A stretch of 64,000 nucleotides of DNA from Candidatus Omnitrophota bacterium. Its GTDB lineage: Bacteria > Omnitrophota > Gorgyraeia > Gorgyraeales > Gorgyraeaceae. Numbering within the stretch: position 1 is the stretch's first letter; every line of letters starts with the position of its first letter. The notes beneath the pieces were generated by a model. It saw only the letters and a program-made list of their open reading frames with translations, was not told the DNA's origin and ran no database searches. Both the position numbers and the translations under genes were made by a program. The stretch spans positions 22,038 to 86,037 of the forward strand of contig JBDRBM010000050.1 in the NCBI GenBank assembly GCA_043822665.1, in the 5' to 3' direction. Shown piece after piece: positions 1,419-14,966 of this stretch.

Positions 1419-1424
1419 GTTTTG

Positions 1425-1829: not shown

Positions 1830-1888
1830 AATTAAAACAAGATTATCACACGCCTTTTATATTGTCAATAACTTTACATTTCTTAGCT

Positions 1889-1969
1889 AAGCAGCATAAG
1901 ATGCTGCGACTACATTTTAGGCTGCAGTTGCAGCGCCTTGCGCTGCTTATTCCATACAACAAGTTAAGC
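1889..1969. repeat. Composite dispersed repeat, copy 1 (hairpin element A plus AAGTTAAGC-type tail E).
   Basis: AAGCAGCATAAGATGCTGCGACTACATTTTAGGCTGCAGTTGCAGCGCCTTGCGCTGCTT (7-bp terminal inverted repeat with an internal GCAGCGC-ctt-GCGCTGC hairpin), followed by a degenerate E tail. Confidence 0.7.
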
Positions 1970-1981
1970 AAATTGCATGTC

Positions 1982-2431
1982 TTAAGCGGGGGTTAAATGT
2001 AAAATTATCTCACCAACTGCCTTTTTGACTTCCTCGCTAAGGCCCTCGCCTAATTTATTGGACTTTGGATGTATACCAAGGATATAGATATCAGCCCTTA
2101 TTGATTCCTTCAGGTATTGTATCAGAAGCTTGGGCGAGACATCATGCGTGGATATCTTGCCCGAGCGAAGGTCTTCGCCCGAAAATAATCTTACATCCCC
2201 TGGTTTACCCTCAAACAATACAGCATCTATTATAATAATAGTATCCGGCTCTGATTTTATTATAATACCTGTGTAATTTTCAGGTGTCATGCCGGCATCT
2301 ATGACTTCATAATCACTACTTTCTTTTATAGCGTTGGCAATAGCCGGGCCCGCGCCATCATCTCCCCTGTCAGGATTCCCAAGGCAGAGGATTATGGTTT
2401 TACCTTTTAAAATACTTCGAATATCAATCAT
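1982..2431 (-). CDS. hycI: Hydrogenase maturation endopeptidase (HycI/HyaD family).
   Basis: 149 aa with N-terminal GNPDRGDDGAG metal-binding motif typical of [NiFe]-hydrogenase C-terminal processing proteases. It is the last gene of the hydrogenase operon. Confidence 0.8.
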   Translation of the reverse strand: MIDIRSILKGKTIILCLGNPDRGDDGAGPAIANAIKESSDYEVIDAGMTPENYTGIIIKSEPDTIIIIDAVLFEGKPGDVRLFSGEDLRSGKISTHDVSPKLLIQYLKESIRADIYILGIHPKSNKLGEGLSEEVKKAVGEIILHLTPA

Positions 2432-2482
2432 AGCCTTCAGCCTTCAGCCTTCAGCAACTGACAACTGAAAGCTGATAGCTTA

Positions 2483-3097
2483 TTATGTGTTAAGAGTAAT
2501 TTCTCTTCTACACTTTGGACAGAGGATATTTATACGATCCTGGCGGGTAAGTTCTTTTGGCCTTTCTATCTTAAGATATGCCAATTTAAGGTCTTTTAAC
2601 GCGGATAAATAAGATGTGGGGCTGGAATAGGCTAACGGCCCAAGTTTTTTCGCAACCCATATAAGATGGTCTTTGGCCCCTACAAGGCATCCGCACCCCT
2701 CACACAAAACAAGTTCCTTTTCTACTGATTCTATTGCCTCATTTCTATCAAATACAGCGAGATCAAACTTATTGGACAGCTTTATACCTTCCTGCGTAAT
2801 GCAAGCTGCCTGGCACTGACCGCAGAATATACAACTATCCAAATGAAGCTCCAACTTTCTGGAAGGCTTCTCAGATTCAACAGAATCAGTGACCTTAATG
2901 CATTGCGCCGGACAGACTTCACTGCATGCGGCGCATCCCACGCAACCGTCTTTGTTATATTCCGGCTTTCCCCTGAAGCGTTTCTCAGGTGTATGCGGCT
3001 TAAAAGGATAACCCGAGGTATAAGGCCTGCTGATCAGTGATTTTACTGCTTCTATTAATTCTCGTATTTTAGGGTATCGCATATGGTTTTGGCACAC
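2483..3097 (-). CDS. Hydrogenase 4Fe-4S subunit (NuoI/MbhN/HycF-like).
   Basis: Two CxxCxxCxxxCP ferredoxin motifs (CVGCAACSEVCP, CIFCGQCQAAC). Size and position match the NuoI-type subunit of group-4 hydrogenases. Confidence 0.75.
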   Translation of the reverse strand: MCQNHMRYPKIRELIEAVKSLISRPYTSGYPFKPHTPEKRFRGKPEYNKDGCVGCAACSEVCPAQCIKVTDSVESEKPSRKLELHLDSCIFCGQCQAACITQEGIKLSNKFDLAVFDRNEAIESVEKELVLCEGCGCLVGAKDHLIWVAKKLGPLAYSSPTSYLSALKDLKLAYLKIERPKELTRQDRINILCPKCRREITLNT

Positions 3098-3195
3098 TAA
3101 AGTGTGCCCTACGCATTTGTCGCAAAGGCCTTCATAAGCGCCTTCTGTAGGGGAGGCTTAAGCCTCCCCTACAGAATACATTATAGCCTTTGCCT

Positions 3196-3522
3196 TTATT
3201 TACCATCTTCCCCATACTTGTCTACTACGCTCTTTTCCCACAGCTTTACGCCTGATTTATAGGCGCCCCGCGCAAGGGCATGCGCAGATACAGGAGACGT
3301 CAATATAAGAAACAACATGCACAAAAGCGCCTTTATGCCTATAGCTGTAATCCCATGAATAAGAAAGGCTCCAAAAAGTATACTGCATGTGCCAAGCGTT
3401 ATGCATTTTGTAGATGCCTGCAGCCTATTATAGACATCAGGAAGCCTTACCAGGCCCAGGCATCCTATAAAATCAAAGAAAAGCCCTATAGATATAAAAA
3501 TAATGCCGATTGTATTAATCAT
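3196..3522 (-). CDS. Mrp antiporter subunit G-like (MnhG/MbhC-like).
   Basis: 108 aa, 3 TM segments, and the LVRLPDVYNRLQAS motif typical of MnhG. Confidence 0.7.
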   Translation of the reverse strand: MINTIGIIFISIGLFFDFIGCLGLVRLPDVYNRLQASTKCITLGTCSILFGAFLIHGITAIGIKALLCMLFLILTSPVSAHALARGAYKSGVKLWEKSVVDKYGEDGK

Positions 3523-3889
3523 CCAATGATTTTCCCTCTAAAAATTTTGCCAAAGCAAGTGTGGCTATGAAACTTTGCAGTGCCCAGGCAATAGCTATAT
3601 CTATATACCAGCTTCTGTTAGTGGAAATCCCTGTTATAACACAGAAGCCGACTATCAGCACACCCAGCATGTCAAGCGTAACCGCCCTGTCAGCCGCGGT
3701 CGGACCCCTGGCAATTCTGTAAAGACACAATCCGCATGAGAATAAAAGTATAAAAAAAGCCCTTTTTAAAAACCCCGTGTAAGGCAGGCCCTTATAAAAA
3801 AGTATCGGCAGCGGATAAAATAATATCACTCCCAGAATACCCAATATAAAAACAGCCCCTATAATGTAACGCCGCCTATTCTTTTTCAT
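3515..3889 (-). CDS. Mrp antiporter subunit F-like.
   Basis: GPTAADRAVTLD motif characteristic of MrpF/MnhF. Small 3-TM protein. Confidence 0.7.
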   Translation of the reverse strand: MKKNRRRYIIGAVFILGILGVILFYPLPILFYKGLPYTGFLKRAFFILLFSCGLCLYRIARGPTAADRAVTLDMLGVLIVGFCVITGISTNRSWYIDIAIAWALQSFIATLALAKFLEGKSLDD

Positions 3890-4383
3890 TCCTCAAATAT
3901 CCTTTTAAGTATCTTCTCGAATTTCTCGACTATAGCCTTTGTCGCCTTCTCTATGTCCTTGTGCTTCACCTCAATCCAATGAATATAAAGGTATCCATTT
4001 TCTTTATCCACATCAACGGTTAATGTGCCGGGTGTAAGCGTTATTGAATTCGATAGAAATGTAAGCGCTGTCTCGGATTTAAGGATTGTCTTTACCTTTA
4101 CTATACCAGGGTGTATAGGTAAATCAGGGTGTATTACCCTGTATGCCACATCAATATTTGCCTTAAAGCACTCCCATAAAAAAACAGGGACATAATATAA
4201 AAACCACAGGTAGCGCATGGGGTGCGTAAATAGATGCGTCCTTTTTACAAAGAAATCCCCTGTCATATACGCGACAAATGCCGACACAATTATGCCTATG
4301 AATATGTGCTGCCAGTCAAACGCCCAACTCAACAATAACCATGTTATAAATCCCAGTATAAATAAAGTAATTCTACTAATCAT
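3886..4383 (-). CDS. Mrp antiporter subunit E-like.
   Basis: MnhE signature region (…ANIDVAYRVIHPDLPIHPGIV…SNSITLTPGT…). Confidence 0.7.
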   Translation of the reverse strand: MISRITLFILGFITWLLLSWAFDWQHIFIGIIVSAFVAYMTGDFFVKRTHLFTHPMRYLWFLYYVPVFLWECFKANIDVAYRVIHPDLPIHPGIVKVKTILKSETALTFLSNSITLTPGTLTVDVDKENGYLYIHWIEVKHKDIEKATKAIVEKFEKILKRIFEE

Positions 4384-4391
4384 TATTTAAT

Positions 4392-5888
4392 TTACCTTAT
4401 AGCCACGAATGCGGCCTTTGCGTAATCCTTACCCGCTAAAATCGCGTCCATGGCTGGACCAAGAAAACTTTCACGAATCCCCGGCAGTAAAAGTAACCCT
4501 CCTGCCAAACAGGCAGCAGCCAGTAATACCATTGACAATTTCATGAAAAATGGGCATTCTTTTATATTACTTAACTCTTTTTTTAATTCGCCGAAAAAGG
4601 CATATCTCTGGACTTTCATAAAATAAGCTAAGGTTAGCACGCTTGTCAAAACTGCCAATACAGCATACACAAAGTGTTGCGCCTGGATGCACGCTACTAT
4701 TATTATCAGCTTGCTCCAGAAACCATTAAAAGGCGGTATGCCGGCTATGGACATGGAACCTATTAAAGAGGTGGCAGATGTAACAGGCATCCTTTCTTTT
4801 AACCCGCCCATCTTCTGCAAATCTCTTGTGCCTGTAGCATACTCAACTGCTCCTGAATTTAAGAATAAGAGCGACTTAAACACAGAATGGTTTAATAAAT
4901 GAAAAAAACCTCCGAGGATCCCTAGTGGAGTGCCAAGGCCAATCCCAAGTATTACATACCCAATTTGACTAATAGAGCTATATGCTAAAAGTCTTTTGAA
5001 ATCCCATTGTCCAAGCGCAAGACACCCCCCAACAATCATTGATAAAGCGCCCAACAGCATTAGGGCATTTAATATCTGAGGTGTCGTGCCAAAAACACTG
5101 AAGAATATCCTTATCATTGCATAAACACCAAGGGACTTTATAAGAACTCCTGAAAGCATGGCTGAGATAGGGGCTGGAGCGGACGGATGGGCGTCGGGGA
5201 GCCATGCGTGAAACGGGACAAGCGCTGACTTTAGGCCAAATCCCATCAAGAAAAAGACGCTCACGAGCATTATTATACGCGGGCTCCCGCCTTTTGCGAT
5301 CTCCAACGACATGTCAGCCATATTTAAGGTAGAAGTAACGCTATATAAAAATACTATTCCTAAAAGTATAAACGAAGACGCCAGTGTTCCCATTACAGCG
5401 TATTTAAACGCTGCCTCAAGTTCTTCGTGCTCTGTGCCAAATGCGACCAGCGCATAGCTTGAAATAGCGGCTATTTCAAGAAATACATAAAGATTGAATA
5501 AATCTCCACTTATTATGACACCGTTCAGGCCGGCCACCATCAATAAGAACAGGCAATAGAAGACCCATTTTTCAGTGTATCTTTCCATGTAATCTATTGA
5601 ATATACGCTTATAAGAAACGCGATAATATTGACTGTAACCGCCATGAAGATAGTTAATCCGTCCATTACCATTGAAATGCCTATTGGCGGCGCCCACCCT
5701 CCCACTTTATACACTATCATGCCTGTCTCTTTAAAAAACAGCACATAGTATATTGAGAGGCAGGCAAGCGAAAAAGTAGCCGCGGCTGAAAGGATATCGG
5801 AAAATCCCTTTACCCTTTTCCCGAAAAGAGAATTTATAAACGCGGCGCCTAACGGAATTGCTACAAATAAAGGTAATAGTTTATGCAT
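4392..5888 (-). CDS. Mrp subunit D / NuoM-N-like antiporter-type membrane subunit.
   Basis: 498 aa, 14 predicted TM segments. The WLPDAHPSAPAPISAMLSGVLIKSLGVYAMIRI signature of the complex I antiporter-like family is present. Confidence 0.8.
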   Translation of the reverse strand: MHKLLPLFVAIPLGAAFINSLFGKRVKGFSDILSAAATFSLACLSIYYVLFFKETGMIVYKVGGWAPPIGISMVMDGLTIFMAVTVNIIAFLISVYSIDYMERYTEKWVFYCLFLLMVAGLNGVIISGDLFNLYVFLEIAAISSYALVAFGTEHEELEAAFKYAVMGTLASSFILLGIVFLYSVTSTLNMADMSLEIAKGGSPRIIMLVSVFFLMGFGLKSALVPFHAWLPDAHPSAPAPISAMLSGVLIKSLGVYAMIRIFFSVFGTTPQILNALMLLGALSMIVGGCLALGQWDFKRLLAYSSISQIGYVILGIGLGTPLGILGGFFHLLNHSVFKSLLFLNSGAVEYATGTRDLQKMGGLKERMPVTSATSLIGSMSIAGIPPFNGFWSKLIIIVACIQAQHFVYAVLAVLTSVLTLAYFMKVQRYAFFGELKKELSNIKECPFFMKLSMVLLAAACLAGGLLLLPGIRESFLGPAMDAILAGKDYAKAAFVAIR

Positions 5889-5945
5889 TATGTTCTCGTG
5901 TACCGTGTATCGTGTACCGTATATCGGGTATCGTTCATATAAAAA

Positions 5946-6284
5946 CTACCCTTTTAAGCTACGTATCTTCGTTATATCAAAGGTGCCGTATTTTTCATAC
6001 ACCCTCATGGCTATGGCCGCAATCAGGGCAGTAACCGCCAGGCCTATGACTATAGCGGTAAGGACAAGCGCCTGAGGTAATGGATCAACCATATCAAGTA
6101 TGGTCTGGTCAGGAGAATGTATCGGCGCTCGGCCGCCTATCTTATAGCCAATCAAAATAAAGAATAGATTTACGGCATACTCCATAACAGTTATGCCTAT
6201 AATAATCTTTATAAGATTCCTTTTTCTAACTATACAATATAGCCCTATGCAAAAAAGCACAAGGCACAAAAAATAGACTGTCAT
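5946..6284 (-). CDS. MrpC / NuoK-like small membrane subunit.
   Basis: 112 aa, 3 TM segments, NuoK/MnhC-like sequence. Confidence 0.7.
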   Translation of the reverse strand: MTVYFLCLVLFCIGLYCIVRKRNLIKIIIGITVMEYAVNLFFILIGYKIGGRAPIHSPDQTILDMVDPLPQALVLTAIVIGLAVTALIAAIAMRVYEKYGTFDITKIRSLKG

Positions 6285-6733
6285 TTTTTCTCGTCCTTTT
6301 TAGCAATCTTAAATAACACCAGCATTACAACGATAATAAAAAGTCCGGATCCTACTTTAAAACTTATGGCAATGTTGTATAAAGGTATAAGGCCCGAGCT
6401 GAATAGCTTAAAAGGCTCACCTTTTGATAGAAAATTCAAAAAGAAATACCCGCCGGCAATACCGAGAAGAGCTAATGTTATAAAAATTATAGCGCCTATA
6501 TTTTCAAAGAAAGAAGCAACGCCTTGGTTTATCTTCTTAAAGGCATCTTCTTTGCCAAAGGCCAGCATTATGTGGATAAACGAAAGCGCGATAATCACAC
6601 CCCCCGCAAAACCTCCTCCAGGGCTTAAGTGGCCATGAGCGACAATATAGATACCGAATAAGAGTATCAGGCCTACTGTAAGCCGAGTGATTGTCTTTAC
6701 TATTATTGTCATGCCTTTCTCCTGCTCTCTCAT
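6281..6733 (-). CDS. MrpB-like (MnhB domain) membrane subunit.
   Basis: GHLSPGGGFAGG motif (MnhB domain). Confidence 0.7.
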   Translation of the reverse strand: MREQEKGMTIIVKTITRLTVGLILLFGIYIVAHGHLSPGGGFAGGVIIALSFIHIMLAFGKEDAFKKINQGVASFFENIGAIIFITLALLGIAGGYFFLNFLSKGEPFKLFSSGLIPLYNIAISFKVGSGLFIIVVMLVLFKIAKKDEKK

Positions 6734-7248
6734 TTTTTCCTGCCTATCTTTCTCATGACTGCCACTACACCCATTACAGCTGTAAATAATATAGTTGCCT
6801 CTCCAAGTGTATCATATGCCCTGTAATCCAAAACTATAGATGTTATCAGATTTGCGGCGCCTGTTTCCTTTAGGCCCTGGCCCACAAAATGCTGGGCAAT
6901 TTTCATTATAGGACTGCCGAACTGGGGCAAGTCCCTCATGCAATAATAACCAAACCCTATAAATACCGCGAGGAAAATAAAAGTAATGAGCGTATTAAAA
7001 AACCACCTTCCGCTTGTCGAGAATGGCAAGTCCTTCCTTATGGTAGCTCTTATAAGGATTATAACACAGAGTATTTCTACTACGAGCTGGGCTATCGCGA
7101 GATCAGGGGCCTTAAGTATCAAAAACGCCAGGGACAAGCCAAGGCCTACTACCCCTACAGCAATAACAGAAGACAAAAGATCTTTTGTCTTTACTGCTAT
7201 AAGAGCACCTATAATCATGAATATTAAAAGAACTTGCAGTTCAATCAT
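6730..7248 (-). CDS. MrpA C-terminal-like (DUF4040, MbhD/E-like) membrane subunit.
   Basis: APDLAIAQLVVE motif and TM layout match the DUF4040 region of MrpA, which Mbh-type hydrogenases encode as a separate gene. Confidence 0.6.
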   Translation of the reverse strand: MIELQVLLIFMIIGALIAVKTKDLLSSVIAVGVVGLGLSLAFLILKAPDLAIAQLVVEILCVIILIRATIRKDLPFSTSGRWFFNTLITFIFLAVFIGFGYYCMRDLPQFGSPIMKIAQHFVGQGLKETGAANLITSIVLDYRAYDTLGEATILFTAVMGVVAVMRKIGRKK

Positions 7249-7252
7249 CTAC

Positions 7253-9055: not shown

Positions 9056-10248
9056 TATATTTTATTTTTTGCGCTTCCTTGTCTCAATCTTTCTGTTTTC
9101 TCCTGCGAAAGACGTATCAAATCCTGGCCATCCATGACCTTTTTGCCGGTATTACAATCTACGACTGCCATGCGTTCAGTACAGCAATAGCACGGGTCAA
9201 CAGCGGCAAGTATTATTGTCGCGTCAGAAATAGTTCCCCCTATTACCGCTTTTTTATTGGATGCTATATTTACATAGCTCGGTGCCCTGACTTTATGCCT
9301 CGCGGGGCTATTACCGCCATCTGACATTACATAATGAAACACCTCTCCTCTTGGCGCCTCATGCCTGCCTATGCCCTCTCCTGGAGGCATATCCTTTATA
9401 TTAAGGTCTATGGGCCCTTTTGGCATCTTATCAAGGCATTGCAATATTATATTGGCGGATTCATAGAGCTCTAATATCCTGACAACCGCCTTTGCGAATA
9501 CGTCTCCGCCTTCCTGTGTGATAACCTTCCATTCTACTTTGTCGTATGCCGCATATGGGTCGTCTTTTCTTACATCTATCATGACGCCGGATGCCCTTGC
9601 GGTAGGGCCTACGCACGCGTAATCATGGACGTCTTGCCTTGTTAATACTCCTACGCCCTCTGTTCTTGCCCTTATCACAGGATCATCTATAACAGCGCCT
9701 TTAAACATGTCAAACTTAGGTATCAGATCCTTTAATGTCTTTTTTATCCATGGGAAATCCGCCTCATCAAGGTCCCTTCTTACTCCGCCTGGTTTAAACA
9801 TAGCATAGTGATTTCTGTTTCCGGAAATTCTTTCAAATATATCTAGTATAGGTTCCCTATATCTCCATGCCCACATCCATACAGTATTATATCCCAAAAA
9901 ATGCCCGGCAAGCCCGAGCCATAGAAGATGGCTGTGTATCCTTTCAAGTTCTCCGATTATGGTCCGTATATAAAGCGCCCTTTCAGGCACTTCCATGCCT
10001 AAAATATCATCTATCGCATTAGTGTAGGCAAAGGGGTGTGATGTTGAGCATATACCGCAAATCCTTTCAACAAGAAACGTCACCTGGTCATAGCTTTTTG
10101 ACTCGGCTATCTTTTCTATCATCCTGTGGTTATACCCGATCTCTATGTCGATATCAACAACTGTCTCGCCGTCCACATGCAACCTGAAAAACTCAGGTTC
10201 TTCCTGCAGCGGGTGATATGGCCCTATTGGTATAATTTTATCTGACAT
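9055..10248 (-). CDS. Group 4 [NiFe]-hydrogenase large (catalytic) subunit, NuoD/HycE/MbhL-like.
   Basis: N-terminal RICGICSTSH (RxCGxC) and C-terminal DPCYCCTER (DPCxxCxxR) Ni-Fe ligand motifs. A 46-aa C-terminal extension follows the Arg-Met site, which is the kind of site a HycI protease cleaves. Confidence 0.9.
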   Translation of the reverse strand: MSDKIIPIGPYHPLQEEPEFFRLHVDGETVVDIDIEIGYNHRMIEKIAESKSYDQVTFLVERICGICSTSHPFAYTNAIDDILGMEVPERALYIRTIIGELERIHSHLLWLGLAGHFLGYNTVWMWAWRYREPILDIFERISGNRNHYAMFKPGGVRRDLDEADFPWIKKTLKDLIPKFDMFKGAVIDDPVIRARTEGVGVLTRQDVHDYACVGPTARASGVMIDVRKDDPYAAYDKVEWKVITQEGGDVFAKAVVRILELYESANIILQCLDKMPKGPIDLNIKDMPPGEGIGRHEAPRGEVFHYVMSDGGNSPARHKVRAPSYVNIASNKKAVIGGTISDATIILAAVDPCYCCTERMAVVDCNTGKKVMDGQDLIRLSQEKTERLRQGSAKNKI

Positions 10249-10311
10249 AACGTAGCTTTCGGCTGTCAGCTATCAGCTATCAGCTTAGTGCTGATGGCTG
10301 AGGACTGATGG

Positions 10312-10749
10312 CTATTGCTGGTCTCTCCTCAAAGGATAATTCCCCTCTGGCCAGTCATCTTTCAAAAGTAAATGCTTTAAATTTGGGTGCCCCTTGAAAT
10401 CCACACCAAACATCTCATGTATCTCACGCTCTATCCACTCAGCGCATTTCATTATAGAAGCAAGGCTCTCTATTTCAAGGCCTGGTTTTTCTATAATAAC
10501 TCTCAGGGTGATTATAAGCCCAATTTCATCTATTGAGAAATGATAGAGTATTTCAATGGCATTCCTTGTGTCAACTCCTGACGCGGTAACAAACCTGGCT
10601 TTTACCTCGTTAAAAAGATATCTTACTATCTTTGGCAGGGCTTCTCTTTTTATAGTAAAATAAGTTCTGCGCTTTGATCTGTCAACAAAATCCACAAGGT
10701 CTTTACCTGAACGCACCTTTATATTTTCTATTATCTGTGTTTTTTTCAT
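10312..10749 (-). CDS. NuoC-like (30-kDa) hydrogenase subunit.
   Basis: 145 aa. The conserved E…HEMFGV…GHP…LLL block of NuoC/HycE N-domain/MbhK is present. Confidence 0.8.
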   Translation of the reverse strand: MKKTQIIENIKVRSGKDLVDFVDRSKRRTYFTIKREALPKIVRYLFNEVKARFVTASGVDTRNAIEILYHFSIDEIGLIITLRVIIEKPGLEIESLASIMKCAEWIEREIHEMFGVDFKGHPNLKHLLLKDDWPEGNYPLRRDQQ

Positions 10750-10798
10750 TTATTCTCTTTGGCGCTGTAGGGCAGGTTTAAACCTGCCCTGCCTATTC

Positions 10799-11224
10799 TC
10801 AGCCTTTGCCTTGAAGTTTTTTTATCAATTTTACTATTGCCGCTATCATTGCCTCTGGTTTTGGAGGGCATCCTGGGATATACGCGTCGACCGGTAGAAC
10901 TGAATCTACCGGATTAGGCGTATTTGGCCCTTTCGCGAATATGCCCTGCCCGCACGCGCACGCGCCTATAGCTATGACAACGCACGGTTTCGGGGCCTGT
11001 TCATAGATCCTTTTTATCCTTGGCATAGTCTTTAAATTCAGGGCGCCTGTAACAAGAATCGCGTCAGCATGCCTTATGCTTCCGACCAGAGTTATACCAA
11101 ACCTCTCAACATCAAACCTAGGAGTCAAAAGGTCAAGGATTTCTATGTCACAGTTATTACAACTGCCTGTTGACATATGATAAACCCAGATAGATTTGGT
11201 TAATGCCTTTAGCTTGAGACTCAT
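10799..11224 (-). CDS. NuoB-like hydrogenase small subunit (proximal 4Fe-4S).
   Basis: CxxC…GxCxxxG…GCPP cysteine pattern (…GACACGQGIF…YIPGCPPKPE…). Confidence 0.85.
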   Translation of the reverse strand: MSLKLKALTKSIWVYHMSTGSCNNCDIEILDLLTPRFDVERFGITLVGSIRHADAILVTGALNLKTMPRIKRIYEQAPKPCVVIAIGACACGQGIFAKGPNTPNPVDSVLPVDAYIPGCPPKPEAMIAAIVKLIKKLQGKG

Positions 11225-11239
11225 TAGATATTACCTCAC

Positions 11240-12146
11240 TTACATGCCTAACATTGCGAGCAATGCCGCTATTATAGCCAAAGAGGTCATTTTTCCCCAG
11301 AAAAATCTAAGCGCCTGGTCAATTCTGACCCTTGGATTTGTATTCCTGATAAGGATTATTATAACCAGTAAAATTATGTATTTCCAGACATTAAATCCGC
11401 CCCAGAATATTGAAGTCAAAAATACAGGCAACGCAACCATCATAATGGCCTTTGTAAGCTTTAAAACAGCTAAGAGGATGCCTGAGTATTCTATATATAT
11501 GCCGCCCATTATCTCTGTCTCTGCCTCTGCCATATCAAAAGGCACTAGGCCAAGTTTTGCCTGCATACAAAATATAGCCACCAATGTAGCGAGTATGCCT
11601 GAAATATTCCAGGCAAACGCCCCATTTATTATCTGATATGCTATAATATCCGTTATTCTTAAAAGGCCTCCGCTTTTAATAATAGGCACTGTAATACAAA
11701 CTATAAAAGGTAATTCATAGGCCAATATCAACTTTATTTCTCTTGATACACCAAGAGACGCCAGAGGATTTCCGCTCGCGGAAGAACCTAATATAAGAGC
11801 AATGGCCGGCACTGTCATTAAATATAAAACTACTATAATATCCCCTGTGAAACCACCCGCGCCTAATTTTATATTGGCCTGCCATATAAAGGTAGAGGCC
11901 AGGACAACAGCGCTAAGGCCAAAAAGAGGGGCTAAAAGAAAAACTGCCTTTTGGGCATTCTTTGGTATAGTAATTTCTTTTATGCTCAATTTAACAAGAT
12001 CCATAAGAGGCTGGTACCAAGGCGGCCCTACCCTCCACTGCACGCGAGCTGTAACCTTGCGATCTATCCAGCTTGCCACAAGGCCTATCGCGGCTGTAAA
12101 TAAGAAACCCGGAAATATTATAAAATCAAATAGATATTTAAGCATA
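11240..12146 (-). CDS. NuoH/HycD/MbhM-like membrane anchor subunit.
   Basis: Polytopic NuoH-family sequence. The ORF track starts at 12169 (TTG), but an in-frame ATG at 12146 (MLKYLFDF…) is the more plausible start. Confidence 0.8.
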
Positions 12147-12245
12147 AACTTTAAAACCCTAAATCCCAAACTCTAAATCCTAAACAAACCCTAAACCCCA
12201 AATCCCAAACCCAAAACTTTTCTTTAGAGTTTAGGGTTTCTCATT

Positions 12246-12728
12246 CTAAGGATGATACTTCTTCCACGGCTTAGCATGCACCGCTATATTCTTGCTTATT
12301 AAAAATATGTCGTCTTTTTCTGATTCTTCTATTTCTATAAATTTTATCGCGCCGCTTATAGAACATGTCTTTGAACATAGAGGATCATCATTGTCGCATC
12401 TGTCTATGCACGCATCGCATCCAGACACGATATACGGCACTGTATCTACAGGTATAGCTCCAAAGGGGCACGCCAGGCTGCAAGACTTACAGGATATACA
12501 GCGCATGGTATAACGCTTTACAACTCCGTCAGGCTGTTTTTCCAGAGCCTCTTTTGGACAGGCGCTTACGCATGGGGCTTCCTCGCATTTCCTGCATATA
12601 TAAAGATACTGGCCCATTTCTCTCAGACGTGTAATTCCTGAATTCTCAGGGTGATAATAATAACTGCATTCCGCCGTAGGAGTTTCGCGGCTATATAATT
12701 TTTCTAAATCTATAAATAGTCTCTTCAT
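12246..12728 (-). CDS. HycB/HydN-like poly-ferredoxin electron-transfer subunit.
   Basis: Three Cys clusters (CRKCEEAPCVSACP, CISCKSCSLACP, CDACIDRCDN…C). It sits between the NAD(P)H module and the hydrogenase core. Confidence 0.6.
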   Translation of the reverse strand: MKRLFIDLEKLYSRETPTAECSYYYHPENSGITRLREMGQYLYICRKCEEAPCVSACPKEALEKQPDGVVKRYTMRCISCKSCSLACPFGAIPVDTVPYIVSGCDACIDRCDNDDPLCSKTCSISGAIKFIEIEESEKDDIFLISKNIAVHAKPWKKYHP

Positions 12729-12803
12729 ATTTTTAGCTTTAAGCTATAAGAAAAAGATTTCGGTATATTTTGTTTTAAAAAAACTTAAAGCTTATAGCTG
12801 TTT

Positions 12804-13628
12804 TCAATCCCAGATTTCGTGTATATTATTTATCTTGTCATATCTAAATACCGGGCCGTCTTTACACGCGTAAAAATTTCCTATCCTGCAATGGCCGCAT
12901 TTACCTATGCCACAGCTCATGTTTTTTTCCATTGACAGATAAATCTGCTCGTTCTTATAACCTACCTCAAGCAGTTTAAACGTAGTAAATTTCATCATTA
13001 TAGGAGGGCCGCATACAATAACAACGCTATTTTTTAGATCTATCTTCAAATTATCCAGAGTCGTAGTGACAAGTCCAACATTGCCTTTCCAATCGTCGTC
13101 TTTTTTATCCACTGTAATTCTGAAATTTACTTTTTTGCTAATCTTCTGCCATTCATCCAGTACGCGGTCTTTATATATGATGTCGGAAGGTGTCCTTGAG
13201 CCACAGCAGAATAATATAGCTTTATATCTATCAAGATCATGAACCAGCGCTAAAAATAACGCCCTTAATGGCGCAAGCCCTACACCCCCTCCTACCAGGA
13301 GGATTTCTTTTCCCTCAAACTCAGAAAGAGGGTACTCGTTGCCATATGGCCCTCTCAAGCCTACTATATCCCCTTTTTTCAATTCATGGATCCTTGCTGT
13401 CACCCTGCCTGCTTTCATGACGCTGATCTCAAGTTTGCTTTTTTCATACGGAGAAGAAGACGGCGTAAAAGGCGCCTCTCCTACGCCTGGTATGGTCATC
13501 TCAATAAACTGGCCTGCCTTAAAATGCAGCGGCTTCTCAGGCTTTAAGGAAATGGTCTTAATAGTAGGGCTTTCTTCAGTAACCCTGACTACTTCTGTCT
13601 TTATTGGAGCGTATGGGTTATCTATCAT
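12804..13628 (-). CDS. FAD/NAD(P)-binding oxidoreductase subunit with C-terminal [2Fe-2S] (sulfhydrogenase gamma HydG / AsrB-like).
   Basis: Ferredoxin-NADP reductase fold motifs (LLVGGGVGLAPL, GSRTP) and C-terminal CGIGKCGHCRIG…C cluster. A 4-nt overlap (ATGA) couples it to the upstream gene. Confidence 0.75.
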   Translation of the reverse strand: MIDNPYAPIKTEVVRVTEESPTIKTISLKPEKPLHFKAGQFIEMTIPGVGEAPFTPSSSPYEKSKLEISVMKAGRVTARIHELKKGDIVGLRGPYGNEYPLSEFEGKEILLVGGGVGLAPLRALFLALVHDLDRYKAILFCCGSRTPSDIIYKDRVLDEWQKISKKVNFRITVDKKDDDWKGNVGLVTTTLDNLKIDLKNSVVIVCGPPIMMKFTTFKLLEVGYKNEQIYLSMEKNMSCGIGKCGHCRIGNFYACKDGPVFRYDKINNIHEIWD

Positions 13629-14650
13629 GATTGAAATTTACTCAGCACCTCATCGATGCGTATCTTTCCGGGACATGCCTCGCTGCACCTTCCACAGCCA
13701 GTACAGCCGAATTTCCCTATAACATTAGGAAAGAAATTAAATTTTTTATCAAAGCGATTGCGCAGCCGCGAGGCTAAGAGCTTCCTGGGATTTGCCCCTC
13801 CCGCCACCATTGCGAAAGAAAATAAAAGACACGAATCCCATAATCTCAATCTTTCAAAATTACCGTCTTTTCCCTGATCTTTTAACACAAAACAGTGGCA
13901 TGCCGGGCATATCACATTACAGGCGCCGCACTCAACACAGGTCTTGACGGTCTCCTCCCATAAGCCTGAGTCGAATTTTTTCTTGAAAAGAGGCTGTATT
14001 GAATCTTTCTCGGGAATATTTTTATTTTTTACATGCTCAAAAAGTTCTTCTTTTAGCCTTTTTCTATTCTCTTCTCTTTTATCTTTATAAAGTCCAGCTC
14101 CCTGAAAAAGCTTAAAGTGCTCTTTTGTTAGTTTTTCTCCCTTTTCAGAACCCACATCTACCACATATCCGCTCTCTATTTCAGAAAGATTGATGTCGAA
14201 GTCTTCTGTCGGGTACGGCATTATACCCAGGGCAACACAAAAACAGCTTTGCCCATAACAAGCGCAATCACTCGAAATTATAAGGCCTTCTTCTCTCCTC
14301 TGGATATAAAAAGGATCTTTAAGGGAATCCTGCCTGAATACGTAATCCATTATTTTTAACGAAGCTAAATCACATGACTTGGCGCCTAAGATTGCTGCTG
14401 GCCTGATTTTTTTACCCGGGAGGTCTTCTGAAAAATAATCGCTTACCTTTGTGCGGACAGGGAGGAAAAAACTCTTTATGCTTTGGACAGGCCTTATCTC
14501 TCCGAGAATAGCCTCACCCAACCCCTCATCTCCCACCTTTTTATAATACCTGTGGTCGCCCGACTTTACAGGCGCATAGGCCTTGTATGTCCTGGAAAGA
14601 GCTTTTACGAATCTATCCAGGTTGGGCCTATTGATAAAGTAAGTATCCAA
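13625..14650 (-). CDS. Fe-S subunit (sulfhydrogenase beta HydB / AsrA-like).
   Basis: CVECGACNVICPACHC and FGCTGCGRCSEACP motifs, paired with the HydG-like gene. It is the first gene of the operon. Confidence 0.7.
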   Translation of the reverse strand: MDTYFINRPNLDRFVKALSRTYKAYAPVKSGDHRYYKKVGDEGLGEAILGEIRPVQSIKSFFLPVRTKVSDYFSEDLPGKKIRPAAILGAKSCDLASLKIMDYVFRQDSLKDPFYIQRREEGLIISSDCACYGQSCFCVALGIMPYPTEDFDINLSEIESGYVVDVGSEKGEKLTKEHFKLFQGAGLYKDKREENRKRLKEELFEHVKNKNIPEKDSIQPLFKKKFDSGLWEETVKTCVECGACNVICPACHCFVLKDQGKDGNFERLRLWDSCLLFSFAMVAGGANPRKLLASRLRNRFDKKFNFFPNVIGKFGCTGCGRCSEACPGKIRIDEVLSKFQS

Positions 14651-14669
14651 GAAAATTAACCTCTGGAAT

Positions 14670-14699
14670 CAAAGTTTGTGAAAATTATCACAAACTTTG
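14670..14699. promoter_or_regulatory. CRP/FNR-family type operator: perfect 12-bp inverted repeat caaagtTTGTGAaaattaTCACAAactttg.
   Basis: TGTGA-N6-TCACA core with 12-bp arms. It lies between the predicted -10 box and the start codon of the hydrogenase operon, i.e. in the 5' UTR. Confidence 0.55.
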
Positions 14700-14726
14700 A
14701 AAAAAATAAAAAATAACTTCTTTTTG

Positions 14727-14755
14727 ACTATAATACAAAGATCTTTTTATGTCAA
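14727..14755 (-). promoter_or_regulatory. Sigma70-like promoter (TTGACA-17 bp-TATAGT) for the hydrogenase operon.
   Basis: Read on the minus strand, TTGACA lies at ~14755-14750 and TATAGT at ~14732-14727, 17 bp apart. This is ~75 nt upstream of the hydB-like start codon. Confidence 0.5.
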
Positions 14756-14784
14756 GGGGTTTTTACTGGAAACTAAGTCAAGTT

Positions 14785-14880
14785 AAGCAGCATAAGATGC
14801 CGCGGCTACAGTTTAGGCTGTAGTTGCAGCGCCTTGCGCTGCTTGTAAAAAGAAAATTCCTATACTATACTATCAAGTTA
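14785..14880. repeat. Composite dispersed repeat, copy 2 (A+E).
   Basis: Near-identical to copy 1 (~90% over 60 nt), followed by AAAGAAAATTCCTATACTATACTATCAAGTTAAGC. Confidence 0.7.
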
Positions 14881-14881
14881 A

Positions 14882-14921
14882 GCACATTAGTAGGGGACCC
14901 TTAAGGGTCCCCTACTAATGT
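14882..14921. repeat. Perfect 40-bp palindrome CACATTAGTAGGGGACCCTT|AAGGGTCCCCTACTAATGTG.
   Basis: Perfect 20-bp arms with no spacer. Member of a 3-copy family sharing the GACCCTTAAGGGTC core. Confidence 0.75.
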
Positions 14922-14927
14922 GTGCCT

Positions 14928-14960
14928 ACAAAAAGGAATTTCCTACTATATCAAGTTACG
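14928..14960. repeat. E-type repeat (AAAAAGGAATTTCCTACTATATCAAGTTA) immediately 3' of the NIL-ferredoxin gene stop codon.
   Basis: Shares ~25/28 nt with the copies at 14849, 54047 and 62571. Confidence 0.6.
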
Positions 14961-14966
14961 CGCTTA

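What the first reader, a model, noticed from the sequence alone, without database searches (positions are those of the whole stretch)
1982..14650. 17-gene group-4 [NiFe]-hydrogenase joining a full Mrp antiporter module to an NAD(P)H-binding HydB/HydG-like module
The sequence shows one co-directional, tightly spaced and partly overlapping gene string. In transcription order it is: HydB-like, HydG-like (FAD/NAD(P) + 2Fe-2S), HycB-like polyferredoxin, NuoH-like, NuoB-like, NuoC-like, [NiFe] large subunit (true RxCGxC / DPCxxCxxR ligands, so a hydrogenase rather than an Mbx/Mbs-type sulfane reductase), MrpA-like, DUF4040 (MbhD/E-like), MrpB, MrpC, MrpD, MrpE, MrpF, MrpG, NuoI-like, HycI. The Mrp-Mbh part follows the Pyrococcus-type Mbh blueprint, which is ferredoxin-dependent. 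Here the operon begins with a sulfhydrogenase-beta/gamma (AsrAB-like) pair plus a bridging ferredoxin. By inference this is an NAD(P)H-linked electron input/output module wired to an ion-translocating hydrogenase. If so, it could be an ion-gradient-driven (reverse electron flow) NAD(P)H:H+ or H2:NAD(P)+ oxidoreductase rather than a simple Fd:H+ one. The presence of two antiporter-like large subunits (600 and 498 aa) is also more Mrp/Mbx-like than Mbh-like.
Basis: partly seen in the sequence, partly recalled or inferred. Interest (0 to 1): 0.75.

Follow-up and report, generated by a model that had tools for sequence, protein, structure and literature searches.

The report
Rex-controlled NAD(P)H-linked membrane hydrogenase operon
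This is a real 17-gene operon from an uncultivated Omnitrophota bacterium. It joins a nickel-iron hydrogenase and a full ion-antiporter module to a flavoprotein pair that probably exchanges electrons with NAD(P)H. It is the standard, already sighted but never biochemically tested, hydrogenase type of that phylum rather than a one-off.

Summary

The window is a public Candidatus Omnitrophota MAG contig. The gene order hydB-hydG-hycB-nuoH-nuoB-nuoC-LSU-mrp is conserved across related Omnitrophota, Elusimicrobia and Spirochaetota genomes: a group-4 large subunit lies downstream of the HydB-like gene in 48 of 51 assessable loci. The HydBG-like pair is therefore an integral part of the unit, not a neighbour.

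New evidence here is a promoter-like site followed by a perfect Rex (NADH/NAD+ sensor) operator 25 nt upstream of hydB. The same operator precedes the operon in 39 of 76 related loci, and a rex gene sits directly upstream in 31 of 71. The FAD, NAD(P) and 2Fe-2S motifs of the HydG-like subunit are invariant in 80 orthologs. No formate-dehydrogenase-like partner is present.

Best reading: an FHL/Mbh-type chassis with a sulfhydrogenase beta/gamma diaphorase in place of formate dehydrogenase, working as an ion-coupled NAD(P)H:H+ oxidoreductase.

Similar AsrAB/SHI-beta-gamma-like modules on Mrp-linked group 4 hydrogenases were already noted in 2019, 2020 and 2026 papers, and function is unproven. 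It is a new member of a known, uncharacterised kind, of moderate interest.

The parts
14727..14755 (-). Sigma-70-like promoter, TTGACA-17-TATAGT
   Evidence: Best-scoring minus-strand site in 1400-15500 (11 of 12 matches). The same layout (TTGACA, -10 box, T-run, Rex box) is seen upstream of hydB in L001 and L002.
14676..14693 (.). Rex operator-like palindrome, TTGTGATAATTTTCACAA on the coding strand, 25 nt upstream of the hydB-like start codon
   Evidence: It is the only match with at most 1 mismatch to TTGTGA-N6-TCACAA in 64 kb (0.14 expected). Equivalent sites precede the first gene in 39 of 76 related loci, against a background of 0.01 per 250 nt. It matches the published Rex site TTGTGAAW4TTCACAA (PMC2883068).
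13625..14650 (-). HydB/ShyB/AsrA-like Fe-S subunit (341 aa; 16 Cys, 15 of them conserved)
   Evidence: Pfam Fer4_22. NCBIfam ShyB 178.9 bits, HydB 152 and AsrA 132, all below their cut-offs. PDB 9nez_B, sulfhydrogenase I beta, E = 1.8e-40 over residues 8-331. Conserved Cys listed. NCBI accession MFH1854608.1.
12804..13628 (-). HydG/AsrB-like flavoprotein (274 aa): FAD, NAD(P) site, [2Fe-2S]
   Evidence: Pfam FAD_binding_6, NAD_binding_1 and DHODB_Fe-S_bind. PDB 9nez_C, sulfhydrogenase I gamma, E = 6e-60. PFTPSS, GGGxGxAP, CGPP and Cys239/244/247/255 are invariant or nearly so in 80 orthologs. It overlaps hydB by 4 nt.
12246..12728 (-). HycB/CooF-type poly-[4Fe-4S] adaptor ferredoxin (160 aa; 13 invariant Cys)
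   Evidence: Pfam Fer4_11. Best PDB matches are HDCR HycB3/HycB4 and E. coli FHL HycB. Cys conservation is 71 of 71 for 13 positions.
11240..12169 (-). NuoH/HycD/MbhM-like membrane anchor (309 aa)
   Evidence: Pfam NADHdh, E = 4e-59.
10799..11224 (-). NuoB-like hydrogenase small subunit (141 aa), proximal [4Fe-4S]
   Evidence: Pfam Oxidored_q6. Cys22, Cys25, Cys89 and Cys119 are invariant in 62 orthologs.
10312..10749 (-). NuoC-like subunit (145 aa)
   Evidence: Pfam Complex1_30kDa.
9055..10248 (-). Group 4 [NiFe]-hydrogenase large subunit (397 aa) with a C-terminal extension for HycI cleavage
   Evidence: Pfam Complex1_49kDa and NiFeSe_Hases. RICGICSTSH and DPCYCCTER are present and invariant in 57 orthologs. 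PDB MbhL 297 bits, HycE 289 bits, MbsL 195 bits. NCBI accession MFH1854602.1.
7253..9055 (-). MrpA N-domain / MbsH'-like antiporter-like subunit (600 aa)
   Evidence: Pfam Proton_antipo_M. Best PDB match is MrpA 7qru_A (175 bits). It aligns over its full length to MBS subunit 6u8y_X (query 10-592 to chain 10-610).
6730..7248 (-). Fused MbhD+MbhE (MrpA C-terminal domain equivalent, 172 aa)
   Evidence: Pfam MbhD and MbhE. NCBIfam DUF4040 / MrpA C-terminal region.
6281..6733 (-). MrpB/MnhB-like subunit (150 aa)
   Evidence: Pfam MnhB.
5946..6284 (-). MrpC/NuoK-like subunit (112 aa)
   Evidence: Pfam Oxidored_q2.
4392..5888 (-). MrpD/MbhH-like antiporter-like subunit (498 aa)
   Evidence: Pfam Proton_antipo_M and Proton_antipo_N. 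PDB MbhH 285 bits, MrpD 280 bits.
3886..4383 (-). MrpE-like subunit (165 aa)
   Evidence: Pfam MNHE.
3515..3889 (-). MrpF-like subunit (124 aa)
   Evidence: Pfam MrpF_PhaF.
3196..3522 (-). MrpG-like subunit (108 aa)
   Evidence: Pfam PhaG_MnhG_YufB.
2483..3097 (-). HycF/NuoI-like 2x[4Fe-4S] subunit (204 aa) with an extra C-terminal Cys motif
   Evidence: Pfam Fer4_7 and related families. NCBIfam formate hydrogenlyase iron-sulfur subunit. PDB HycF 7z0s_F 79.8 bits against MbhN 54.8 bits. Two clusters from Cys52/55/58/62 and Cys89/92/95/99, plus extra Cys132/135/137/193/196.
1982..2431 (-). HycI-type large-subunit maturation endopeptidase (149 aa)
   Evidence: Pfam HycI, E = 3.3e-20.
1888..1948 (-). 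About 62-nt GC-rich imperfect hairpin directly 3' of hycI: probable 3' boundary or RNA-stabilising stem-loop (a REP-like element)
   Evidence: RNA fold -34.5 kcal/mol, z = -4.66. A second copy at 14784-14844 lies just 5' of the operon promoter. Four copies occur in the window, none in 85 related loci.

Best explanation
The region is a single operon under Rex (NADH/NAD+ sensor) control that encodes one membrane complex.

The proposed composition has four parts:
- A group 4 [NiFe]-hydrogenase core: large subunit, NuoB-like small subunit, NuoC, a NuoH-like anchor and a HycF/NuoI-like 2x[4Fe-4S] subunit.
- A complete, split Mrp-type ion-translocating arm with two antiporter-like subunits.
- A HycB-type poly-ferredoxin adaptor.
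- A flavoprotein/Fe-S pair homologous to the beta and gamma subunits of soluble sulfhydrogenase (group 3b), bound in place of the formate dehydrogenase or CO dehydrogenase that known modular relatives carry.

The proposed electron path is NAD(P)H <-> FAD and [2Fe-2S] (HydG-like) <-> [4Fe-4S] clusters (HydB-like) <-> HycB-like <-> HycF-like <-> NuoB-like cluster <-> [NiFe] site.

The enzyme is therefore an ion-coupled NAD(P)H:H+ oxidoreductase. Rex derepresses its targets when NADH accumulates, so the likely physiological direction is NAD(P)H oxidation with H2 release. This runs close to equilibrium. At ordinary H2 pressures it would be helped by ion influx through the Mrp arm (reverse electron flow). 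Only at very low H2 could it conserve a little energy.

Shown: gene content, cofactor motifs, conserved linkage, the operator, and rex adjacency in relatives.
Inferred: assembly into one complex, the identity of the nucleotide, the direction, and the coupling ion.
For: - Domain content and intact metal and cofactor ligands.
- Homology of the 341-aa and 274-aa proteins to solved sulfhydrogenase I beta and gamma.
- PFTPSS, GGGxGxAP, CGPP and the four [2Fe-2S] cysteines are invariant or nearly so in 80 HydG-like orthologs at 53-91% identity. Thirteen cysteines are invariant in 71 HycB-like orthologs.
- Among the 80 best species-representative loci found with the HydB-like protein, HydG follows directly in 74 of 77, a group 4 large subunit follows on the same strand in 48 of 51, and Mrp antiporter-like genes follow in 44 of 48.
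- The linkage holds in Elusimicrobia (L003, L072) and Spirochaetota (L061, L083) and with unrelated flanks.
- hydB and hydG overlap by 4 nt in the window, with a median of -2 nt in 82 pairs.
- The promoter-like site and a perfect Rex box lie upstream of hydB. Rex boxes occur in 39 of 76 related loci, and 39 of the 46 boxes found in 1.13 Mb of locus sequence lie in those upstream windows. A rex gene (Pfam Put_DNA-bind_N + CoA_binding) lies directly upstream in 31 of 71 loci.
- No molybdopterin or Fdh-like ORF lies inside the operons or in the sampled flanks, so HydBG-HycB is the only peripheral module.
- Literature: Ace Lake Omnitrophota MAGs each carry a single hydrogenase type, and the alternatives (3b, 3d, A3) are all NAD(P)H-linked (PMC8542988). 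An NAD(P)H-linked role for this one fits that pattern.
Against: - There are no biochemical or expression data.
- All NCBIfam equivalog scores for HydB/ShyB/AsrA and HydG/ShyC/AsrB are below their cut-offs, so this is a distinct subfamily whose nucleotide partner is not established.
- The residue after the beta2 glycine is always Arg or Lys. The same pattern occurs both in the NADPH-using SHI gamma (named as involved in NADPH oxidation in PMC13582414) and in an NfnA homolog (4ylf_A) that, from my own knowledge, binds NAD(H). NADH versus NADPH is therefore unresolved.
- From my own knowledge, Rex senses NADH rather than NADPH, and it also controls enzymes that do not themselves use NADH, including hydrogenase-related genes in Caldicellulosiruptor (PMC6391272).
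- Ferredoxin could still dock on the HycF-like or HycB-like subunits as in MBH.
- NADH -> H2 is uphill by about 18 kJ/mol at standard conditions. The proposed direction therefore needs low H2 (below about 70 Pa at NADH:NAD+ = 1) or an energy input.
- One relative (CP070780.1, L004/L039) has the soluble-arm genes without adjacent Mrp or HycF genes.
Confidence: 0.55

Rival explanations
1. Ferredoxin remains the main donor, as assumed for 'group 4g, Mrp-linked' enzymes. The HydBG-like pair is a side branch, so the complex takes electrons from both ferredoxin and NAD(P)H (confurcation-like). Alternatively it doubles as an ion-translocating ferredoxin:NAD(P)+ oxidoreductase.
For: The HycF/NuoI-like subunit is homologous to MbhN, which from my own knowledge is the ferredoxin-docking subunit of MBH. 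Published reconstructions assume ferredoxin coupling (PMC8542988, PMC9324843, PMC10066038). A 2026 study proposes bifurcation or confurcation for group 4b clusters that carry SHI beta/gamma homologs (PMC13582414).
Against: That proposal rests on a third branch, an Fdh-like subunit, which is absent here. The HydG-like flavoprotein belongs to the PyrK/NfnA/SHI-gamma class, whose FAD is not, to my knowledge, the bifurcating one. The invariant presence of HydBG-HycB at the start of the operon argues for a main role rather than an accessory one.
Confidence: 0.25
2. The complex works mainly in the uptake direction, as an H2:NAD(P)+ oxidoreductase that pumps ions and supplies reductant for Wood-Ljungdahl-type carbon fixation.
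For: H2 -> NAD(P)+ is exergonic at high H2 (about -18 kJ/mol at 1 bar, from established redox potentials). Many Omnitrophota of the Gorgyraia and Velamenicoccia encode acetogenesis genes together with a '4g' membrane hydrogenase (PMC10066038).
Against: Rex control predicts induction when NADH is already high, which fits an NADH-consuming enzyme better than an NADH-producing one. At the H2 levels I would expect in sediments (1-10 Pa, from my own knowledge) the uptake reaction is endergonic. All characterised group 4 enzymes are H2-evolving in vivo (HydDB description, PMC5037454).
Confidence: 0.12
3. The HydB/HydG-like pair is a sulfur, polysulfide or sulfite-related reductase module (sulfhydrogenase- or Asr-like), so the complex reduces a sulfur compound rather than exchanging electrons with NAD(P)H.
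For: The nearest named families are sulfhydrogenase beta/gamma and AsrA/AsrB. JGI annotates some orthologs as 'sulfhydrogenase subunit beta (sulfur reductase)'.
Against: No AsrC-type siroheme subunit is in the operon. AsrA and AsrB scores are below their cut-offs. The NAD(P) and FAD motifs are strictly conserved. The large subunit keeps true [NiFe] ligands, unlike MBS/Mbx.
Confidence: 0.05
4. hydB and hydG are a separately transcribed unit that merely lies next to an ordinary Mrp-Mbh operon.
For: A 75-nt gap separates hydG from hycB (12729-12803). A weak promoter-like hit lies inside hydG at 13024-12997.
Against: The gap has no terminator-like or promoter-like hit on the coding strand and no significant RNA structure (z = -0.14). 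In L001-L005 the two genes are 1, 4, 14, -4 and 6 nt apart. The linkage is conserved in 48 of 51 loci, and the promoter and Rex box lie upstream of hydB rather than hycB.
Confidence: 0.03

Closest known systems
'Mbh-Mrp-oxidoreductase type' group 4 hydrogenases seen in MAGs: Saganbacteria RX5A (PMC6349859), Elusimicrobia lineages (10.1101/765248), and group 4b clusters with SHI-beta/gamma homologs (PMC13582414)
   Same: An Mrp-linked group 4 [NiFe]-hydrogenase sits next to AsrA/HydB-like, AsrB/HydG-like and CooF/HycB-like genes. The 2019 paper names Omnitrophica and Zixibacteria sequences as the nearest relatives of its large subunit. Function is uncharacterised.
   Different: Those descriptions include a molybdopterin (Fdh-like) subunit. 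That subunit is absent from this operon and from all 80 related loci examined. None of the passages I read in those papers mentions Rex control of these operons.
Pyrococcus furiosus membrane-bound hydrogenase MBH (group 4d, PDB 6CFW)
   Same: The large subunit is the best PDB match (297 bits). The 498-aa subunit matches MbhH (285 bits). MbhD/E, MnhB, NuoK-like and MrpE/F/G-like small subunits are present.
   Different: MBH has one antiporter-like subunit and takes electrons directly from ferredoxin (PMC8165549). This complex has a second, MrpA/MbsH'-like subunit, a HycB adaptor, HydBG, HycI, a cleavable large-subunit extension, and a different gene order.
Formate hydrogenlyase, E. coli Hyc (group 4a, PDB 7Z0S), and the modular Fdh-Mfh-Mnh and CODH-Mch-Mnh complexes of Thermococcus onnurineus (group 4b)
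   Same: It shares the plug-in architecture: a catalytic partner is wired through a HycB/CooF-type ferredoxin to a HycF-like subunit and the hydrogenase core. The matches are HycE 289 bits, HycF best match, HycB-like, and HycI. Group 4b also has a full Mrp module (PMC5037454).
   Different: The partner is a flavoprotein/Fe-S pair rather than formate dehydrogenase or CO dehydrogenase.
Soluble sulfhydrogenase I of P. furiosus (group 3b, PDB 9NEZ), beta and gamma subunits
   Same: The subunits are homologous over nearly their full length (E = 1.8e-40 and 6e-60). The cofactor motifs are the same: FAD, NAD(P) site, [2Fe-2S] and three Cys clusters.
   Different: In this operon they are paired with a membrane-bound group 4 core instead of the group 3b delta/alpha subunits. 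Scores are far below the NCBIfam equivalog cut-offs (178.9 vs 690; 211.2 vs 650).
Respiratory complex I (NuoEFG N-module on a NuoBCDHI + antiporter chassis)
   Same: It is a functional analogy only. A pyridine-nucleotide dehydrogenase module feeds an Fe-S chain on the same ancestral membrane chassis, coupled to ion translocation.
   Different: The NAD(P)H module is not homologous to NuoEFG. The acceptor is H+ at a [NiFe] site, not quinone.

Membership tests
Group 4 (respiratory, membrane-bound) [NiFe]-hydrogenase | Large subunit with both Ni-Fe ligand motifs (RxCGxCxxxH and DPCxxCxxR) | tested here: met
   RICGICSTSH at aa 62-71 and DPCYCCTER at aa 351-359. Both are invariant in 57 orthologs.
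Group 4 (respiratory, membrane-bound) [NiFe]-hydrogenase | NuoB-like small subunit with four Cys for one [4Fe-4S], plus NuoC, NuoH and NuoI homologs | tested here: met
   Pfam hits. Cys22/25/89/119 are invariant.
Group 4 (respiratory, membrane-bound) [NiFe]-hydrogenase | Maturation machinery nearby | tested here: met
   HycI is in the operon. HypA, HypE, HypD and a HypF C-terminal part lie directly upstream, and the HypC-sized ORF has a HypC counterpart in L001.
Group 4d, ferredoxin-coupled Mrp-linked MBH (Pyrococcus type) | Single antiporter-like subunit (MbhH) and no additional oxidoreductase module; ferredoxin as direct donor | tested here: not met
   There are two antiporter-like subunits and three extra redox subunits, HydB, HydG and HycB. 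The donor cannot be tested with these tools.
Group 4a/4b, formate- or CO-respiring hydrogenlyase complexes | Formate dehydrogenase or CO dehydrogenase catalytic partner in the cluster | tested here: not met
   No unassigned ORF of 150 aa or more lies inside the window operon. The only recurrent inserted ORF in related loci is a PhoU-domain protein of about 200 aa. The large upstream ORFs sampled are kinases, permeases and regulators.
Group 4a/4b, formate- or CO-respiring hydrogenlyase complexes | HycB/CooF-type adaptor, HycF-like subunit, HycI-processed large subunit; for 4b also a full Mrp module | tested here: met
HydDB group 4g ('ferredoxin-coupled, putative') | Assignment of the large subunit by the HydDB classifier or by phylogeny with reference sequences | not tested
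   No labelled reference set could be fetched. The literature assigns the Mrp-linked membrane hydrogenases of Omnitrophota to 4g (PMC8542988, PMC10066038). 4g is described as loosely clustered and polyphyletic (PMC5037454, PMC13582414). The large subunit is about equidistant from MbhL (4d) and HycE (4a).
Sulfhydrogenase beta/gamma (HydB/HydG, ShyB/ShyC) diaphorase pair | NCBIfam equivalog score above cut-off | tested here: not met
   ShyB 178.9 vs 690; HydB 152 vs 750; HydG 211.2 vs 650; ShyC 184.6 vs 600.
Sulfhydrogenase beta/gamma (HydB/HydG, ShyB/ShyC) diaphorase pair | Full-length homology and conserved FAD, NAD(P), [2Fe-2S] and Cys-cluster motifs | tested here: met
Sulfhydrogenase beta/gamma (HydB/HydG, ShyB/ShyC) diaphorase pair | NAD(P)H oxidation or reduction activity | not testable with these tools
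   This needs enzyme assays. The specificity-determining position is Arg or Lys in 80 of 80 orthologs, which is not diagnostic.
Anaerobic sulfite reductase AsrABC | AsrA and AsrB above cut-off, and a siroheme subunit AsrC in the cluster | tested here: not met
   AsrA 132.2 vs 323; AsrB 232.7 vs 288.6. No AsrC-like gene is in the operon.
NfnAB / SudAB transhydrogenase | GltD-like large subunit (NfnB/SudA) partnered with the PyrK-like small subunit | tested here: not met
   The partner is a Fer4_22 HydB-like protein, and no Pyr_redox/GltD-type gene is in the operon. The NfnA homolog 4ylf_A is a much weaker match (E = 1.9e-21) than SHI gamma.
Rex regulon | Rex operator (TTGTGAAW4TTCACAA-like palindrome) in the promoter region | tested here: met
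   Window 14676-14693 matches TTGTGA-N6-TCACAA exactly. The site is conserved in 39 of 76 related loci, with consensus AGTTTGTGAWAATTTTCACAAAGT. Published site: PMC2883068.
Rex regulon | A rex gene in the genome and binding relieved by NADH | tested here: inconclusive
   No rex homolog is in the 64-kb window. A rex gene lies directly upstream of the operon in 31 of 71 related loci. Binding is not testable here.

The most novel reading that the evidence does not exclude
The 'group 4g, Mrp-linked, ferredoxin-coupled' hydrogenases assumed in metabolic models of Omnitrophota and neighbouring phyla are instead Rex-gated, ion-gradient-coupled NADH:H+ oxidoreductases. That would make them a complex-I-like chassis that independently acquired a non-NuoEFG pyridine-nucleotide module. 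Such an enzyme would let these small-genome fermenters vent glycolytic NADH as H2 by reverse electron flow, without an electron-confurcating [FeFe] hydrogenase.
Probability: 0.4. Interest if true: 0.7.

Novelty: new member of a known kind. Interest (0 to 1): 0.5.

Why it matters
Published reconstructions of Omnitrophota, Elusimicrobia and related candidate phyla treat this enzyme as a ferredoxin-oxidising, Na+-exporting Mbh.

If the conserved HydBG-HycB module makes NAD(P)H the partner, three things change. The donor changes, the sign of the ion flux probably changes, and so does the energy budget of these widespread anaerobes. The enzyme would be the first ion-coupled NAD(P)H-dependent group 4 hydrogenase. 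It would also be a second, independent solution to attaching an NAD(P)H dehydrogenase to the complex I ancestor.

The Rex operator gives a cheap, direct test (EMSA with and without NADH). The operon is compact enough for heterologous expression.

Tried and rejected
- The Rfam scan of the whole window found nothing.
- A first Rex search used the wrong half-site spacing and gave only a chance-level hit. The corrected pattern gave the single exact site.
It has no coding-strand promoter or terminator hit. Its apparent inverted repeats fold no better than shuffled sequence (z = -0.14).
- My tblastn-based estimate of that gap in other loci (median 64 nt) is inflated by variable HycB N-termini. I therefore rely on the source gene calls for L001-L005.
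- I looked for a formate-dehydrogenase-like partner inside and upstream of 85 loci and found none.
- I tried to infer NADH versus NADPH from the beta2-end motif. It is always Arg or Lys, which is not diagnostic.
- The 2025 SHI structure paper (PubMed id 40570843) is not held. The supplements of the 2026 group 4 selenocysteine paper (PMC13582414) are not held either.
- A labelled phylogeny of the large subunit against HydDB subgroups could not be built, because no reference sequences for 4b, 4c, 4e, 4f or 4g could be fetched. Only bit scores against solved MbhL, HycE and MbsL are given.
- The Asr, Nfn and 'separate unit' readings were considered and rejected for the reasons given under rival explanations and the membership tests.

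Full report
**Observation.** Pfam and NCBIfam reproduce every domain call:
- a Fer4_22 HydB/ShyB/AsrA-like protein (341 aa)
- a FAD_binding_6 / NAD_binding_1 / DHODB_Fe-S_bind HydG/AsrB-like protein (274 aa)
- a Fer4_11 HycB/CooF-like ferredoxin (160 aa)
- NuoH, NuoB and NuoC homologs
- a 397-aa [NiFe] large subunit
- a 600-aa antiporter-like subunit
- a fused MbhD+MbhE protein
- MnhB, a NuoK/MrpC-like protein, a 498-aa MrpD, MrpE, MrpF and MrpG
- a HycF/NuoI-like ferredoxin (204 aa)
- HycI

The large subunit has RICGICSTSH and DPCYCCTER followed by a 38-residue extension. Gaps between genes run from -8 to +98 nt.

**Source and relatives.** The HydB-like protein is 100% identical to NCBI MFH1854608.1, and the large subunit is MFH1854602.1. 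Both come from an 86-kb contig of a Candidatus Omnitrophota MAG. The 120 best large-subunit homologs are 72-90% identical, and those that carry a phylum name are labelled Omnitrophota/Omnitrophica.

**Is the HydBG-like pair part of the unit?** Yes.
- Two relatives found through the large subunit have the same order from hydB to the HycF-like gene. L001 has 81% large-subunit identity. L002 (Omnitrophica WOR_2 RBG_13_41_10) has 72%, and its flanking genes are unrelated to those in the window.
- Three relatives found through HydB at only 48-51% identity begin with the same seven genes (hydB to the large subunit). They are L003 (Elusimicrobia), L004 (an Omnitrophota chromosome) and L005. L003 and L005 continue into the Mrp genes. 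L004 is the Mrp-less variant described under Variants below.
- A scan of one genome per GTDB species with a HydB alignment found 381 relatives. The best 80 are mostly Omnitrophota, plus Elusimicrobia, Spirochaetota, Latescibacterota and a Nitrospiraceae MAG.
- In those 80 loci, HydG follows HydB directly in 74 of 77. A group 4 large subunit follows on the same strand in 48 of 51. Mrp antiporter-like genes follow in 44 of 48.
- hydB and hydG overlap in the window (-4 nt) and typically elsewhere (median -2 nt).
In L001-L005 the two genes are 1, 4, 14, -4 and 6 nt apart.

**Boundaries and regulation (new here).**
- The best minus-strand promoter-like site in the region is TTGACA-17-TATAGT at 14755-14727.
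- Between it and the start codon lies TTGTGATAATTTTCACAA (14676-14693). This is the only match with at most 1 mismatch to TTGTGA-N6-TCACAA in 64 kb (0.14 expected). It is one mismatch from the published Rex operator TTGTGAAW4TTCACAA (PMC2883068).
- The same palindrome lies within 250 nt upstream of the first gene in 39 of 76 related loci, and 39 of the 46 such boxes found in 1.13 Mb of locus sequence lie in those upstream windows. The consensus is AGTTTGTGAWAATTTTCACAAAGT, with a median of 23-28 nt before the first gene.
- In 31 of 71 loci a rex gene (Put_DNA-bind_N + CoA_binding) is the gene directly upstream, and the box then precedes rex.
- The window itself has no rex gene.
- At the 3' end, a 62-nt hairpin (-34.5 kcal/mol, z = -4.7) follows hycI at 1948-1888. 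A second copy sits just 5' of the promoter at 14844-14784. The unit therefore runs from about 14755 to about 1888.

**Anatomy.**
- The HydB-like and HydG-like proteins align over nearly their full length to the beta and gamma subunits of P. furiosus sulfhydrogenase I (9nez; E = 1.8e-40 and 6e-60). They score below every NCBIfam equivalog cut-off, including AsrA and AsrB, so they form a distinct subfamily.
- In 80 HydG-like orthologs, the FAD motif PFTPSS, the GGGxGxAP and CGPP nucleotide-site motifs and the four [2Fe-2S] cysteines are invariant or nearly so. In 71 HycB-like orthologs, 13 cysteines are invariant, enough for three [4Fe-4S] clusters. Fifteen cysteines are conserved in HydB.
- The HycB-like protein is closest to HDCR HycB3/4 and FHL HycB. 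The NuoI-like protein is closer to HycF (79.8 bits) than to MbhN (54.8 bits). The large subunit is equidistant from MbhL (297 bits) and HycE (289 bits), and far from MbsL (195 bits).
- The 600-aa subunit is MrpA-like and matches MBS subunit 6u8y_X over its whole length. The 498-aa subunit matches MbhH and MrpD. MBH has one antiporter-like subunit, and MBS and Mrp have two (PMC8165549).
- No molybdopterin or Fdh-like gene is in the operon or in the sampled flanks of any related locus.

**Most likely mechanism.** By analogy with solved FHL, MBH and SHI, electrons pass in this order: NAD(P)H, FAD and [2Fe-2S] (HydG-like), HydB-like clusters, HycB-like, HycF-like, the NuoB-like cluster, then the [NiFe] site. 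Turnover is coupled through the NuoH-like anchor to the Mrp arm.

Rex represses its targets at a low NADH/NAD+ ratio, which points to a role in disposing of NADH as H2. From standard potentials (-320 and -414 mV), NADH -> H2 costs about +18 kJ/mol at 1 bar H2. It breaks even near 70 Pa and yields only about 5-10 kJ/mol at 10-1 Pa. That is less than the roughly 15 kJ/mol I estimate for moving one ion against a 150 mV gradient.

I therefore favour a near-equilibrium enzyme that uses ion influx to push NADH-dependent H2 formation, rather than a pump. This step is inference.

Ace Lake Omnitrophota MAGs each encode one hydrogenase, of type 3b, 3d, A3 or '4g' (PMC8542988). The first three are NAD(P)H-linked, so an NAD(P)H-linked '4g' enzyme fits the pattern.

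**Caveats.**
- There are no activity or expression data.
- The nucleotide-specificity position is always Arg or Lys, as in SHI gamma and in the NfnA homolog 4ylf_A. This leaves NADH versus NADPH open.
- Rex also controls enzymes that do not use NADH, including hydrogenase-related genes (PMC6391272).
- Ferredoxin may still dock on HycF or HycB.

**Variants.**
- CP070780.1 lacks adjacent Mrp and HycF genes (L004/L039).
- Spirochaetota loci place the Mrp genes divergently (L061, L068).
- Two Latescibacterota loci join rex-hydB to Mrp genes and a pyridine-nucleotide disulfide oxidoreductase, with no large subunit within 7 kb (L045, L047).

**Comparison with what is known.**
- HydDB defines 4b (formate/CO-respiring, Mrp-linked), 4d (ferredoxin-coupled, Mrp-linked) and 4g (loosely clustered, unknown function) (PMC5037454).
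- The Mrp-linked membrane hydrogenases of Omnitrophota have been labelled 4g and modelled as ferredoxin-coupled (PMC8542988, PMC10066038, PMC9324843). I could not run that classifier on this sequence.
- An 'enigmatic' Saganbacteria hydrogenase with Mrp subunits, a molybdopterin protein, and CooF-, AsrA- and AsrB-like genes was described in 2019. Its nearest large-subunit relatives were from Omnitrophica and Zixibacteria, and the extra genes were proposed to form an oxidoreductase module (PMC6349859 and its Supplementary Note 5).
- Elusimicrobia 'Mbh-Mrp-oxidoreductase type' enzymes of unknown function followed in 2020 (10.1101/765248).
- In 2026, group 4b clusters with SHI-beta/gamma homologs and Fdh-like proteins were proposed to bifurcate (PMC13582414).

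The present cluster is the Fdh-less form and appears to be the standard one in Omnitrophota.

**Verdict.** I file it as a new member of a known but biochemically uncharacterised kind, with interest 0.5.

Noticed in passing
window 1888-1948, 14784-14844, 18613-18634, 54022-54043 (all minus strand, intergenic): A genome-specific REP-like element of about 62 nt (AAGCAGCGCAAGGCGCTGCAAC...GCATCTTATGCTGCTTA) folds into a long imperfect hairpin (-32 to -34.5 kcal/mol, z about -4.8). Two copies bracket the hydrogenase operon. It is absent from all 85 related loci and has no Rfam match.
   Followed up: partly
window 14883-14922: A perfect 20+20-nt palindrome (CACATTAGTAGGGGACCCTT / AAGGGTCCCCTACTAATGTG) lies just after the NIL-ferredoxin gene. 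Repeated TCAAGTTAAGCA words occur at 14778, 14873 and 14951. It is probably the terminator of the upstream gene.
   Followed up: no
window 14967-15374 (minus strand): A NIL-domain + 2x[4Fe-4S] ferredoxin gene lies between the hyp genes and the hydrogenase operon. It is also present at the same place in L001 but not in L002.
   Followed up: no
window 15328-21116 (minus strand): The hyp cluster contains HypA, HypE, HypD and a HypC-sized ORF. HypF is reduced to its Kae1-like C-terminal part (375 aa) and is preceded by a 344-aa ORF with no Pfam hit. No hypB was seen. The 263-aa ORF at 15328-16119 has no Pfam hit here, while its L001 counterpart is labelled AbpE_bact.
   Followed up: partly
window 2483-3097 (HycF-like protein, aa 132-196): There is an extra C-terminal cysteine motif (CxxCxC ... 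CxxC; Cys132/135/137/193/196) beyond the two canonical [4Fe-4S] motifs. It could be an additional metal site.
   Followed up: no
window 45156-51212 (minus strand): A 2018-aa ribonucleotide reductase is interrupted by inteins. It has three Intein_splicing stretches, a Hint domain, two LAGLIDADG endonuclease domains and a TSCPD tail.
   Followed up: no
window about 40000-44600: A low-GC island (0.31-0.35 against about 0.42) holds the only plus-strand gene block in this part of the window: a methyltransferase, a PMT_2 glycosyltransferase and a GT9 heptosyltransferase.
   Followed up: no
window 26591-33572 (minus strand): Two tandem secretin genes (502 and 875 aa) are followed by two unassigned ORFs and a PilM-PilN fusion.
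   Followed up: no
L002 11194-11814; also L038, L050, L052, L070, L076, L085: An ORF of about 200 aa is inserted between the large subunit and the MrpA-like gene in 7 related operons. It is absent from the window. Only the L002 copy was scanned, and it carries a PhoU domain.
   Followed up: partly
L045 9245-18123 and L047 (Latescibacterota): rex and a hydB-like gene are joined directly to MrpE, a 448-aa pyridine-nucleotide disulfide oxidoreductase, MrpF/G, MbhE+MnhB, MrpC and two MrpD-like genes. There is no HydG and no [NiFe] large subunit within 7 kb. This may be a different HydB-linked Mrp complex.
   Followed up: partly
L004/L039 (CP070780.1, 1-12198); L063 (CP070655.1); L065: Variants exist. 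One operon stops after the large subunit, with no Mrp or HycF genes adjacent. One has rex plus an orphan hydB-like gene followed by nadA/nadC. One locus has two hydB-hydG pairs.
   Followed up: partly
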